Part shown: one piece after another, positions 23,734 through 25,648 of the stretch | Numbering within the stretch: the first letter of the stretch is position 1 | Layout of the letters: the number at the start of each line of letters is the position of its first letter | Source of the DNA: Felis catus | Taxonomy: Eukaryota | Direction: 5' to 3' | Assembly (NCBI RefSeq): GCF_018350175.1 | Contig: NC_058368.1 | Coordinates: forward strand, 99,946,001 to 100,010,000 | Length of the DNA stretch: 64,000 nt | Made by a program: the position numbers and the translations under genes | Notes under the pieces: generated by a model | What the model saw: only the letters and a program-made list of their open reading frames with translations | What the model was told of the DNA's origin: nothing | The model's database searches: none

Positions 23734-23748
23734 AAAAAGTCAAAAATA
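23734..23748 (+). repeat. 5' target-site duplication of the SARS1 retrocopy
   Basis: AAAAAGTCAAAAATA preceded by TTT (L1 endonuclease TT/AAAA site); identical copy at 25634-25648. Confidence 0.95.
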
Positions 23749-23822
23749 GGGCGCAGTGCGGCGGTCAGTGGCTGCGGTGATACGTTCTCCACGTCCCATA
23801 GTGTGGCCCGAGAGCAGGAAAG

Positions 23823-25364
23823 ATGGTGCTGGATCTGGATTTGTTTCGGGTAGATAAAGGAGGGGACCCAGCCCTCATCCGAGAGACGCAGGAGAAGCGC
23901 TTCAAGGACCCGGGACTAGTAGATCAGCTGGTGAAGGCAGACGGCGAGTGGCGACGATGCCGATTTCGGGCAGACAACTTGAACAAGCTGAAGAACCTAT
24001 GCAGCAAGACAATTGGGGAGAAAATGAAGAAAAAAGAGCCAGTGGGGGATGAGTCCATTCCGGAGGATGTATTAAATCTTGATGACCTCACTGCAGACAC
24101 TTTAGCTAACCTGAAAGTCTCACAAATCAAAAAAGTCCGGCTCCTCATCGATGAAGCCATCCTAAAATGTGATGCCAAGCGGGTAAGGTTGGAGGCAGAG
24201 CGGTTTGAGAACCTCCGAGAGATAGGGAACCTTCTGCATCCCTCTGTGCCCATCAGCAATGATGAGGATGCAGACAACAAAGTCGAGAGGATCTGGGGTG
24301 ACTGTACGGTCAGGAAGAAGTACTCTCACGTGGACCTGGTGGTGATGGTAGATGGCTTTGAAGGCGAAAAGGGGGCCGTGGTGGCTGGAAGTCGAGGGTA
24401 CTTCCTGAAGGGGGTCCTGGTATTCCTGGAACAGGCGCTCATCCAGTATGCCCTTCGCACTTTGGGGAGTCGGGGCTACACTCCCATTTATACTCCCTTT
24501 TTCATGAGGAAGGAGGTCATGCAGGAAGTGGCACAGCTCAGCCAGTTTGACGAAGAACTGTATAAGGTGATTGGCAAAGGCAGTGAAAAGTCAGATGACA
24601 ACTCCTATGATGAGAAATACCTGATTGCCACATCAGAGCAGCCTATAGCTGCTCTGCACCGGGACGAGTGGCTGCGGCCCGAGGATCTGCCAATCAAGTA
24701 TGCCGGCCTGTCCACCTGCTTTCGCCAGGAGGTGGGCTCCCATGGCCGAGACACCCGCGGCATCTTTCGAGTCCATCAGTTTGAGAAGATTGAACAGTTT
24801 GTCTACTCGTCACCACACGACAACAAGTCATGGGAGATGTTTGAAGAGATGATTGCTACCGCAGAGGACTTCTACCAGTCTTTGGGGATCCCTTACCACA
24901 TTGTGAATATTGTCTCAGGTTCTTTGAATCATGCTGCCAGTAAGAAGCTTGACCTGGAGGCCTGGTTTCCGGGCTCCGGAGCCTTCCGTGAGTTAGTCTC
25001 CTGTTCTAACTGCACAGACTATCAGGCTCGCCGGCTCCGAATCCGATATGGGCAAACCAAGAAGATGATGGACAAGGTAGAGTTTGTCCACATGCTCAAT
25101 GCCACAATGTGCGCCACCACTCGCACCATCTGCGCCATCCTGGAGAACTACCAGACAGAGAAGGGCATTGTTGTGCCTGAGAAATTGAAGGAGTTCATGC
25201 CGCCAGGTCTCCAAGAACTGATCCCTTTTGTGAAGCCTGCCCCCATTGACCAGGAGCCATCAAAGAAGCAGAAGAAGCAGCATGAGGGCAGCAAAAAGAA
25301 AGGGGCAGCAAGAGATGTCCCCCTAGAAAGCCGGCTGCAGAACATGGAGGTCACTGATTCTTGA
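23823..25364 (+). CDS. SARS1: Intact intronless ORF encoding cytosolic seryl-tRNA synthetase (retrocopy of SARS1), 513 aa
   Basis: The translation ([29 protein letters not shown]...LQNMEVTDS) is recognisable mammalian SerRS. It retains class II motifs (ATSEQP; motif 2 [25 protein letters not shown]; motif 3 [14 protein letters not shown]) and the C-terminal UNE-S with basic NLS. No stops, frameshifts or introns; start context gaagATGG. The symbol refers to the parent gene; this locus is a retrocopy. Confidence 0.97.
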
Positions 25365-25572
25365 ACATTCCTTCCTCCCGGTTTGTCAGGCTTTCGTTTC
25401 TGTCAGCTGGGATCTCAGAACCTGCCCACGGGCAGGGAAGCCAAGCACCCACTCGTCCCCGCCCCATCTGACTGCATTGCTAAAAGGGGAACAGTCTGCC
25501 GTGTACAATACAACGTTCCTGTCTCTTTGCATGGGCATAGGATCCAATCACTGATGACTGATGAAACCATGT

Positions 25573-25578
25573 AATAAA
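25573..25578 (+). terminator. Polyadenylation signal of the retroposed SARS1 mRNA
   Basis: AATAAA 18 nt upstream of the start of the poly(A) tract at 25597. Confidence 0.9.
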
Positions 25579-25633
25579 GCATCTCTGGGGAAGGCTAAAA
25601 AAAAAAAAAAAAAAAAAAAAAAAAAAAAAAAAA

Positions 25634-25648
25634 AAAAAGTCAAAAATA
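25634..25648 (+). repeat. 3' target-site duplication of the SARS1 retrocopy
   Basis: AAAAAGTCAAAAATA directly after the poly(A) tail, identical to 23734-23748. Confidence 0.95.

What the first reader, a model, noticed from the sequence alone, without database searches (positions are those of the whole stretch)
23734..25648. Young, apparently full-length SARS1 retrocopy with a completely open 513-codon frame: candidate felid retrogene / retroCNV
Seen: an intronless SerRS CDS with no stop or frameshift, both UTRs, AATAAA, an uninterrupted 42-A run, a perfect 15-bp TSD at a TTT/AAAAA site, and abundant retained CpGs in an otherwise CpG-poor window. Known: these are hallmarks of L1 target-primed reverse transcription of a cellular mRNA; mammalian SARS1 is multi-exon; pure poly(A) tails and CpGs decay quickly. 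Inference: this is a very recent insertion, possibly species-specific or still polymorphic, giving a second potentially coding copy of an essential synthetase. An open frame is expected from youth alone and does not prove function.
Basis: partly seen in the sequence, partly recalled or inferred. Interest (0 to 1): 0.85.

Follow-up and report, generated by a model that had tools for sequence, protein, structure and literature searches.

The report
Young intact SARS1 retrocopy in cat
A cat-family genome carries a recent, intron-less, still fully readable extra copy of the essential seryl-tRNA synthetase gene, pasted in by LINE-1 machinery and seen in every cat read set examined; it is a textbook young retrocopy whose few changes hint at, but do not prove, continued use.

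Summary
Window 23749-25633 is a full-length processed copy of the SARS1 mRNA, with a 15-bp target-site duplication on each side. The parent is an 11-exon gene on another contig (C17:93059288-93081386), and all 10 of its introns are GT-AG. Copy and spliced parent differ at 7 of 1848 bases. Five of these are CpG losses in the copy. Six lie in the coding sequence: 5 synonymous and 1 missense (E119K).

With domestic-cat mutation rates the copy is about 0.3-2.5 My old. It shares the parent's R122, where a Prionailurus SerRS model has K, so it probably arose on the Felis side.

It does not look like a rare retroCNV. Contigs from 3 of 3 DNA runs laid cross the 5' junction with no mismatch, and no empty allele was seen.

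Its function is undecided. One missense among 6 coding changes departs from neutrality (P about 0.006; omega about 0.07). One RNA-seq read pair spans flank into copy. Against function: n is tiny, E119K hits a residue that is E in 26 of 28 vertebrates, and the 64-kb window has no CpG island.

The exact protein is already in public annotation. Verdict: new member of a known kind, of moderate-low interest.

The parts
23734..23748 (+). 5' copy of the target-site duplication, AAAAAGTCAAAAATA, preceded by TTT (an L1 endonuclease-type TT/AAAA site)
   Evidence: identical 15-mer at 25634-25648. The 600-nt flank upstream is single copy in the genome.
23749..23749 (+). Extra non-templated G at the 5' end of the insert. 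The parent has C at the corresponding place.
   Evidence: upstream contexts printed side by side. Reading it as a reverse-transcribed cap G is recalled knowledge and was not tested.
23750..23822 (+). 5'UTR of the copied mRNA (73 nt). It carries one copy-specific base, 23780 A, where the parent has G.
   Evidence: The parental CpG-rich sequence upstream of C17:93059288 was not copied.
23823..25364 (+). Intact SerRS coding sequence, 513 codons plus TGA. The ten exon-exon joins lie after 23958, 24029, 24107, 24266, 24410, 24566, 24788, 24918, 25076 and 25206.
   Evidence: Pfam tRNA-synt_2b 7.5e-56 and Seryl_tRNA_N 7.3e-18. End-to-end match to human cytoplasmic SerRS chains 8p7b/3vbb. Six differences from the parent: 24177 (E119K), and synonymous changes at 24263, 24398, 24593, 25049 and 25106.
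25365..25597 (+). 3'UTR, identical to parental exon 11, with AATAAA at 25573-25578.
   Evidence: The parent genomic sequence diverges immediately after the base matching 25597.
25598..25633 (+). Poly(A) tail of 36 uninterrupted A. The whole A-run is 25597-25638.
25634..25648 (+). 3' copy of the target-site duplication.
   Evidence: The 602-nt flank downstream is single copy in the genome.

Best explanation
Origin (near certain): a capped, spliced, polyadenylated SARS1 mRNA from the 11-exon gene on contig C17 was reverse-transcribed by LINE-1 machinery. The reaction started at a TTT/AAAAA nick on contig C1 (target-primed reverse transcription). The product is an insert with an extra 5' G, the whole 5'UTR, coding sequence and 3'UTR, a tail of about 36 A, and a 15-bp target-site duplication. 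The parental promoter was not copied.

Age and spread (inferred): the insertion happened roughly 0.3-2.5 My ago. It came after the parent had acquired R122, so probably on the Felis side of the cat family. It is now fixed or at high frequency in the species sampled, so it is not a rare retroCNV.

Present status (my lean, about one in two): it is a not-yet-decayed processed pseudogene. Its frame is open because only 6 coding changes have occurred. Its CpGs are decaying by methyl-CpG deamination. If it is transcribed at all, that is by read-through from upstream. I give about one in three that it is instead a transcribed retrogene under purifying selection. The confidence given here is for the whole statement including the neutral lean; for the origin alone it is above 0.95.
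For: Origin:
- Only two SARS1-like loci exist in the genome, the copy and 11 exons on C17. In one search, 12 matches came from 17 candidates scored.
- All 10 introns are GT-AG, and the spliced exons are colinear with window 23750-25597 without any gap.
- Target-site duplication, A-run, AATAAA and the extra G are all present.
- Both flanks are single copy.

Youth:
- 7 differences in 1848 nt, 5 of them CpG to TpG/CpA with the CpG kept in the parent.
- Cat rates are 2.3e-9 per bp per year (pedigree), 1.54e-9 (phylogeny) and 1.76e-7 per CpG site per generation of 3.8 years (PMC9290555, passages).
- All 7 changes on one neutral lineage give 0.72 My (0.29-1.48), or 1.07 My (0.43-2.21) with the phylogenetic rate.
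- Copy and parent share R122, whereas the Prionailurus iriomotensis model and 24 of 28 vertebrate SerRS have K.

Spread:
- X1 contig covers 23150-23779. X6 and X12 contigs cover 23150-23803. Each has 0 other letters, and there were no loose ends.
- I laid 3 of the 14 genome-sized runs listed. All 14 hold share 0.97.

Neutral lean:
- No CpG island anywhere in the 64 kb.
- The only missense change reverses the charge at a position that is E in 26 of 28 vertebrate SerRS. It is the protein's only departure from a residue conserved at 90% or more.
- An open frame is unremarkable: P about 0.64.
Against: Against the neutral lean:
- 1 missense among 6 coding changes, where a CpG-aware neutral model expects 74% missense. 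P(1 or fewer of 6) = 0.006. Maximum-likelihood omega is 0.07 (profile interval 0.004-0.445).
- The result stays at P about 0.04 even if half of the path lay in the constrained parent.
- Among the 5 CpG transitions, which by direction arose on the copy's side, 1 is missense (P = 0.019).
- One RNA-seq read pair in X24 runs from about 23580 across the junction to beyond 23822 at 99% likeness or more. It was 1 pair among 12,895,792 records, about 2% of the run.
- The synonymous changes alone would imply 2.4 My (0.8-5.6), older than the all-sites estimate. That is what constraint would produce.

Against 'fixed':
- Only 3 runs were laid, and X1 may be the source sample.
- Contigs can drop a minor allele.
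- I did not verify that the sampled words include junction words.
- The 3' junction was not examined in reads.
Confidence: 0.5

Rival explanations
1. Functional retrogene. The copy is transcribed from an upstream start, ends at its own AATAAA, is translated into a second cytosolic SerRS (E119K), and is kept by purifying selection.
For: - 5 synonymous to 1 missense change. P(1 or fewer missense of 6 under neutrality) = 0.006. Omega is about 0.07 with an upper bound of 0.445.
- The CpG-only test gives P = 0.019.
- One RNA read pair crosses flank into copy.
- The frame is intact, with the parental start context and both Pfam domains.
- Seen in every read set examined.
- Precedent: 14 of 113 dog retroCNVs showed expression in testis, including FARSBL1, a retrocopy of another tRNA-synthetase subunit (PMC9435743, passages).
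Against: - Only six changes. One or two more missense changes would erase the signal.
- The single missense change hits E119, which is E in 26 of 28 vertebrates.
- No promoter or CpG island was copied or lies nearby.
- One read pair could be pre-mRNA, read-through or DNA carry-over. The A42 tract is an internal oligo-dT priming site (inference).
- No parental 5'UTR reads were laid, so no allele ratio at 23780 could be formed.
- My prior for young retrocopies being functional is low (recalled, a few per cent).
Confidence: 0.33
2. Very recent insertion from a divergent parental haplotype. Most of the 7 differences arose in the parent gene, under selection and hence synonymous, before the mRNA was copied. 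The reference parent allele simply lacks them.
For: - It would explain the synonymous excess without any function. With 75-90% of the path under constraint, P(1 or fewer of 6) rises to 0.14-0.45.
- X6 and X12 contigs end at 23803, whereas X1 ends at 23779. This may mean the parental 5'UTR differs among cats (unexplained).
Against: - Four synonymous CpG transitions on one parental lineage need about 2.9 My at 1.39 per My. That is far deeper than an ordinary within-species coalescence (inference).
- All five CpG differences are losses on the copy's side.
- The copy, including its 23780 A, is already present in 2 further cats from other studies. That does not fit a very recent event.
Confidence: 0.08
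3. Polymorphic retroCNV: present in the reference animal and some cats, absent in many.
For: Such reference retroCNVs are common in canids (PMC9435743, abstract and passages). Only three runs were genotyped here.
Against: - 3 of 3 runs carry the junction, each as a single unbranched contig with no empty-site end.
- 14 of 14 genome-sized runs from 7 studies have identical word shares.
- 7 accumulated differences imply an age at which a neutral insertion is usually fixed or lost (inference).
Confidence: 0.07
4. Assembly artefact or cDNA contamination.
For: None found.
Against: - Target-site duplication at an L1-type site inside a 239-Mb contig.
- Independent contigs from three read sets cross the 5' junction.
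- The copy differs from the parent at 7 sites.
Confidence: 0.01

Closest known systems
L1-mediated processed pseudogenes / gene retrocopies of mammals
   Same: Intron-less copy of a spliced mRNA, a poly(A) tail after AATAAA, a 15-bp target-site duplication at a TT/AAAA-type site, a location on a different chromosome from the parent, and no parental promoter.
   Different: Unusually complete and young. It is full length from an apparent cap G to the tail, with 99.6% identity to the parent and an intact 513-codon frame. Most retrocopies are 5'-truncated or decayed (recalled).
Recent full-length retrocopies (retroCNVs) of canids, including the expressed FARSBL1 and FGF4 retrocopies (PMC9435743; abstract and passages seen)
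   Same: A recent, full-length retrocopy in a carnivore with active L1. The parent is a housekeeping gene, and FARSBL1 also derives from a tRNA-synthetase gene. Expression there was judged from copy-specific variants and junction or chimeric reads, the same tests attempted here.
   Different: The canid cases are presence/absence variants among individuals. This copy was found in all 3 read sets laid and looks older (7 substitutions). No phenotype or clear expression is known for it. That paper has no occurrence of 'SARS' and mentions cats only in a reference title.
Human cytoplasmic seryl-tRNA synthetase (PDB 8p7b, 3vbb, 4l87)
   Same: End-to-end alignment of residues 1-513 to 1-514 at 1130 bits, with the class II core and the N-terminal arm.
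   Different: The copy has K where human, the cat parent and 26 of 28 vertebrates have E (residue 119; human 120). It is also one residue shorter in the arm, as is the parent.

Membership tests
L1-mediated processed retrocopy | Colinear with the spliced mRNA of a multi-exon parent gene elsewhere in the genome | tested here: met
   11 exons on C17 and 10 GT-AG introns. The spliced length of 1848 nt equals window 23750-25597 without gaps.
L1-mediated processed retrocopy | Poly(A) tail at the mRNA cleavage site, downstream of a poly(A) signal and not encoded in the parent locus | tested here: met
   AATAAA at 25573-25578. The A-run starts at 25597. The parent continues with GGACT... instead.
L1-mediated processed retrocopy | Target-site duplication at an L1 endonuclease-type site (TT/AAAA) | tested here: met
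   Perfect 15-bp repeat at 23734-23748 and 25634-25648, preceded by TTT. The consensus site itself is recalled.
L1-mediated processed retrocopy | Empty site in relatives or in other individuals | not testable with these tools
   No mammalian relatives are held. Only runs of one organism label plus metagenomes were returned. No empty-site end appeared in 3 runs.
Functional retrogene | Intact open reading frame with the catalytic domains | tested here: met
   513 codons, with tRNA-synt_2b and Seryl_tRNA_N. Expected from youth alone, P about 0.64.
Functional retrogene | Transcription of the copy itself (copy-specific variants or junction reads) | tested here: inconclusive
   One read pair across the 5' junction, in about 2% of one oligo-dT run. 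No parental reads were laid for comparison.
Functional retrogene | Purifying selection on the copy's own lineage (omega below 1) | tested here: inconclusive
   1 missense and 5 synonymous changes. P = 0.006 against neutrality and 0.04 against the half-constrained path. The lineage was assigned only by CpG direction, no outgroup DNA was available, and n = 6.
Functional retrogene | Own or recruited promoter | tested here: not met
   The parental upstream CpG-rich sequence was not copied. No CpG island lies in the 64 kb. A CpG-poor recruited promoter cannot be excluded.
retroCNV (polymorphic retrocopy) | Presence/absence variation among individuals of the species | tested here: not met
   Filled junction in 3 of 3 runs laid, with no empty allele seen. 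Equal word share in 14 of 14 runs. The sample is small, so a high-frequency polymorphism is not excluded.
Class II seryl-tRNA synthetase (cytoplasmic SerRS) | N-terminal seryl-tRNA synthetase arm plus class II core, full-length similarity to solved SerRS | tested here: met
   Pfam E-values 7.3e-18 and 7.5e-56. Full-length match to the human enzyme. Enzyme activity was not tested.

The most novel reading that the evidence does not exclude
The Felis lineage has gained a second, working cytosolic seryl-tRNA synthetase gene within the last few million years. In this reading it is a promoter-less retrocopy that recruited an upstream start, uses its own poly(A) signal, has been held under purifying selection (omega about 0.07) since insertion, and carries a charge-reversing E119K change in the tRNA-binding arm that could mark a new or tissue-specific role.
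Probability: 0.3. Interest if true: 0.55.

Novelty: new member of a known kind. Interest (0 to 1): 0.35.

Why it matters
In itself it is one more young retrocopy, and it shows that L1 has recently mobilised full-length cellular mRNAs in the cat lineage. It is practically relevant in three ways:
- It is 99.6% identical to SARS1 mRNA, so it can capture RNA-seq and exome reads and create false SARS1 variants. E119K and six other sites would be affected.
- It is already annotated as a protein.
- It offers seven diagnostic sites for an easy expression test.

If the synonymous excess holds up with more species, it would be a rare case of a newborn duplicate of an essential tRNA synthetase caught within its first few million years.

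Tried and rejected
- **Earlier notes of this scan.** Look-ups by place (near, relatives) and by sequence found nothing on this locus.
- **Literature.** Five full-text searches found no paper on a SARS1/SerRS retrocopy in cats: 'retrocopy' + 'Felis catus'; 'SARS1' + 'retrogene'; 'retroCNV' + 'cat'; 'seryl-tRNA synthetase' + 'processed pseudogene'; 'retrocopies' + 'domestic cat' + 'LINE-1'. For these I saw listings only.
- **Metagenome scan.** An exact 32-base pattern around the K119 codon gave 0 matches in JGI metagenome contigs.
- **Allele ratio at 23780 in RNA.** It could not be formed. Only the one junction-spanning pair was laid, and no parental 5'UTR reads appeared. They may have been removed by the tool's filter for human-like reads.
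- **Runs X15-X20.** I draw nothing from them, apart from noting that one carries the label 'feline metagenome'.
- **APOBEC-type editing of the cDNA as the source of the G-to-A changes.** Rejected. Five of the 7 changes are CpG transitions on both strands, which ordinary methyl-CpG decay explains.
- **P0029 as evidence of expression.** This is the UniRef 'Felis catus' 494-aa model with K119. Rejected as evidence. Its 19-residue gap (window 24732-24788, GT...AG) ends exactly at the exon 7/8 join and removes part of the class II core. It can be a modelling product of parental alternative-donor reads or of protein projection.
- **Purity of the A-tail and perfection of the duplication as clocks.** Rejected as weak. 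Expected substitutions in such short stretches are far below 1 per My (inference from the rates).
- **Cross-species test of the empty site.** Not possible.
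Full report
**Observation**

The region reads exactly as described.
- An ATG-to-TGA frame of 513 codons lies at 23823-25364 on the + strand.
- It is preceded by 73 nt of 5'UTR (23750-23822).
- It is followed by 233 nt of 3'UTR (25365-25597), with AATAAA at 25573-25578.
- An uninterrupted run of 42 A occupies 25597-25638.
- The 15-mer AAAAAGTCAAAAATA stands at 23734-23748 and again at 25634-25648. 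The first copy is preceded by TTT.

Five A of the run belong to the repeat and one may be templated, so the tail proper is 36-37 A.

CpG content of the insert is 66 in 1848 nt (observed/expected 0.52). The 5-kb flanks have 0.21 and 0.18. No 1-kb bin of the 64-kb window qualifies as a CpG island.

**Parent and mechanism**

A search of the window's own assembly finds the insert itself plus 11 pieces on another contig, C17:93059288-93081386. A protein search finds the same two loci and nothing else: 12 matches from 17 candidates scored.

I fetched the parental region and resolved each exon boundary to a unique GT...AG pair, 10 of 10 introns. The spliced exons total 1848 nt and are colinear, without a gap, with window 23750-25597.
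- Upstream of the first matched base, the parent has CpG-rich promoter-like sequence that is not in the window.
- Downstream of the last matched base, the parent continues with unrelated sequence where the window has the A-run.
- Base 23749 is a G where the parent has C. It is an extra, non-templated 5' G of the kind ascribed to reverse transcription of the cap (recalled, not tested). It suggests the copy starts at a real transcription start.
- Both 600-nt flanks are single copy in the genome.

These are the defining marks of L1 target-primed reverse transcription of a cellular mRNA. The identification as a SARS1 retrocopy is secure. The protein has both SerRS Pfam domains and aligns end to end with human cytoplasmic SerRS structures.

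**Differences and age**

Copy and spliced parent differ at 7 of 1848 positions, given here as parent to copy.

| Position | Change | Region / effect | CpG loss in the copy |
|---|---|---|---|
| 23780 | G>A | 5'UTR | no |
| 24177 | G>A | E119K | yes |
| 24263 | C>T | synonymous | yes |
| 24398 | C>G | synonymous | no |
| 24593 | G>A | synonymous | yes |
| 25049 | C>T | synonymous | yes |
| 25106 | G>A | synonymous | yes |

Five are CpG-to-TpG/CpA changes with the CpG retained in the parent. Their direction points to changes on the copy's side. Human SerRS also has E at the missense site, so K119 is derived.

I used domestic-cat rates from PMC9290555 (abstract start, passages):
- 2.3e-9 per bp per year from pedigrees;
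- 1.54e-9 from cat-tiger divergence;
- 1.76e-7 per CpG site per generation of 3.8 years.

A single neutral lineage of this sequence is then expected to collect 9.7 changes per My. The resulting ages:

| Changes used | Rate | Age |
|---|---|---|
| All 7 | pedigree | 0.72 My (0.29-1.48) |
| All 7 | phylogenetic | 1.07 My (0.43-2.21) |
| 5 synonymous only | pedigree | 2.4 My (0.8-5.6) |

These numbers assume the organism is the domestic cat or a close relative.

A qualitative upper bound comes from the protein. Copy and parent both have R122. The SerRS model of Prionailurus iriomotensis (P0017) and 24 of 28 vertebrate sequences have K. The mRNA was therefore copied after that substitution, probably after the Felis and Prionailurus lines split. 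This rests on one Prionailurus protein model. The split date of about 6 My is recalled.

**Is the substitution pattern neutral?**

A mutation model built on the parental coding sequence with the cat rates expects 73.6% of coding changes to be missense or nonsense. The figure is the same (73.7%) among CpG transitions alone.
- Observed: 1 missense of 6 coding changes, P(1 or fewer) = 0.006.
- Among the 5 CpG transitions, 1 is missense, P = 0.019.
- Maximum-likelihood omega is 0.07, with a profile interval of 0.004-0.445.
- If half of the path separating the two sequences lay in the constrained parent (omega 0.05-0.1), P is still about 0.04.
- Only if 75-90% of the path lay in the parent does the pattern become unremarkable (P 0.14-0.45).

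So there is a nominally significant deficit of missense changes. Three readings remain:
- purifying selection on the copy;
- a very recent copy of a deeply divergent parental haplotype;
- chance.

The haplotype reading needs about 2.9 My for four synonymous CpG changes on one parental lineage, at 1.39 per My. That is much deeper than ordinary within-species coalescence (inference).

Against selection, the one missense change is a charge reversal at a position that is E in 26 of 28 vertebrate SerRS (S and D in the other two). It is the only place where the copy's protein departs from a residue conserved at 90% or more. In total, 390 of 513 positions are that conserved. For that alignment I took 26 of the 120 proteins listed, 3 of the 15 listed, and P0001. 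For the conservation counts I left out P0001 and P0029, which both carry the copy's sequence.

The open frame carries no weight. The chance of no nonsense change in 6 coding changes is about 0.64, with indels not modelled.

With a recalled prior of a few per cent for function in young retrocopies, I put roughly:
- 0.5 on neutral decay;
- 0.33 on constraint;
- 0.08 on the haplotype explanation.

**Presence in other animals**

A search of public runs with window:23150-23822 (66 sampled words) returned 14 genome-sized runs of one coded organism from 7 studies. All hold 0.97 of the words. It also returned metatranscriptome runs with smaller shares, one of them labelled 'feline metagenome'. No other species label appeared, so nothing can be said about other species.

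I laid 3 of the 14 (X1, X6, X12, from three studies; X1 may be the source sample) and one raw RNA run. In each DNA run a single contig crosses the junction 23748|23749 with no other letter:

| Run | Contig span | Bases into the insert |
|---|---|---|
| X1 | 23150-23779 | 31 |
| X6 | 23150-23803 | 55 |
| X12 | 23150-23803 | 55 |

- The X6 and X12 contigs include the copy-specific A at 23780.
- No loose end and no empty-site contig was reported.

This rules out an assembly artefact at the 5' junction. It also argues against a rare insertion. Limits:
- Contigs can drop a minor allele.
- Three animals cannot exclude a high-frequency polymorphism.
- I could not verify that junction words were among the sampled words.
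- The 3' junction was not examined.

An unexplained detail is that X1's contig stops at 23779. That is where a 31-mer graph must branch between copy (A) and parent (G). X6 and X12 both stop at 23803, which may mean the parental 5'UTR differs in those animals.

**Expression**

In X24 (oligo-dT RNA-seq, raw reads, about 2% of the run, 12,895,792 records) exactly one read pair was laid. It runs from about 23580 through the junction to beyond 23822, at 99% likeness or more, with the first mate on the - strand.
- If the library is stranded in the usual way, the RNA is sense to the copy. I do not know that it is.
- This shows at most that some RNA, or carried-over DNA, in that sample spans flank and copy and starts at least 170 nt upstream of the insert.
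- It fits read-through from an upstream start. It equally fits unspliced host RNA primed on the genomic A-run (inference).
- No parental 5'UTR reads were laid, so no allele ratio could be formed.

**Public annotation**

The exact 513-residue protein with K119 is already in NCBI and UniRef, on one contig of 239,367,248 nt. So the locus is annotated as coding.

A UniRef entry named 'serine--tRNA ligase, Felis catus' (P0029, 494 aa) equals the copy's protein minus residues 304-322.
- That gap is window 24732-24788.
- It starts with GT, ends with AG, and ends exactly at the exon 7/8 join.
- It removes part of the class II core.

I read it as a modelling product, not as evidence of expression. It does tie the copy-specific K119 to a public record labelled Felis catus.

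Five literature searches found no paper on a SerRS retrocopy in cats.

**Surroundings**

The window is AT-rich and CpG-poor throughout.
- L1 reverse-transcriptase fragments lie at 44216-44644 (-) and 62200-62703 (+).
- Two roughly 200-bp SINE-like repeats in opposite orientation lie about 1-2 kb upstream (about 21669-21869 and 22468-22689).
- A roughly 315-bp repeat lies about 1.2 kb downstream (about 26857-27170).

I did not establish whether the site is inside an intron of a host gene.

**Comparison and verdict**

The closest described counterparts are the recent full-length retrocopies of canids. There, 14 of 113 showed some expression in testis, and a retrocopy of another tRNA-synthetase subunit gene, FARSBL1, is expressed (PMC9435743, passages).

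The present copy meets every tested defining feature of an L1-mediated retrocopy. It fails the tested feature of a retroCNV. It is inconclusive on two of the features that define a functional retrogene (transcription, selection) and negative on an obvious promoter.

It is a new member of a known kind. It is worth a cheap follow-up because seven diagnostic sites make expression and selection directly testable, but it is not surprising in itself.

Noticed in passing
window 23749: A single extra G between the target-site duplication and the first base that matches the parent, which has C there. It looks like the cap-derived G reported for full-length L1-mediated insertions (recalled). If so, it marks C17:93059288 as a real SARS1 transcription start.
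   Followed up: partly
window 23779 / 23803: The X1 contig ends at 23779, where a 31-mer graph must branch between the copy (A at 23780) and the parent (G). The X6 and X12 contigs both run on to 23803 and stop at the same base. This may mean the parental 5'UTR, or the copy at 23804, varies among cats. Unexplained.
   Followed up: no
window 24732-24788 (P0029): A public 'Felis catus' SerRS model equals the copy's protein minus 19 residues. The missing 57 nt start with GT, end with AG and end at the exon 7/8 join. The same deletion would arise from an alternative donor inside parental exon 7.
   Followed up: partly
window 24186-24188 (codon 122, AGG) and parent: Copy and parent share R122, where a Prionailurus model and 24 of 28 vertebrate SerRS have K. 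This is a lineage-specific substitution in the cat's SARS1 that predates the retrocopy.
   Followed up: partly
protein cluster of P0001: The 90%-identity cluster that holds mammalian SerRS (1345 members) is represented by a 1013-aa ELAPOR1/KIAA1324 protein and mixes the two families. Presumably read-through or fusion gene models of neighbouring genes cause this. It hides felid SerRS entries from the homology search.
   Followed up: no
window 44216-44644 (-) and 62200-62703 (+): Open frames with reverse-transcriptase (RVT_1) matches, E-values 5.9e-07 and 6.3e-09. These are decayed L1 fragments in the same AT-rich window.
   Followed up: partly
window about 21669-21869 and 22468-22689; about 26857-27170: Two roughly 200-bp high-copy SINE-like repeats in opposite orientation lie upstream of the copy, and a roughly 315-bp high-copy repeat lies downstream (11199 and 886 first-look candidates). 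The read contigs start at the nearer SINE.
   Followed up: partly
window 53610-53626: A 17-A run next to a 2-kb stretch with raised CpG (52001-54000, observed/expected 0.41-0.55). It may be the tail of another fairly young retroposed element.
   Followed up: no
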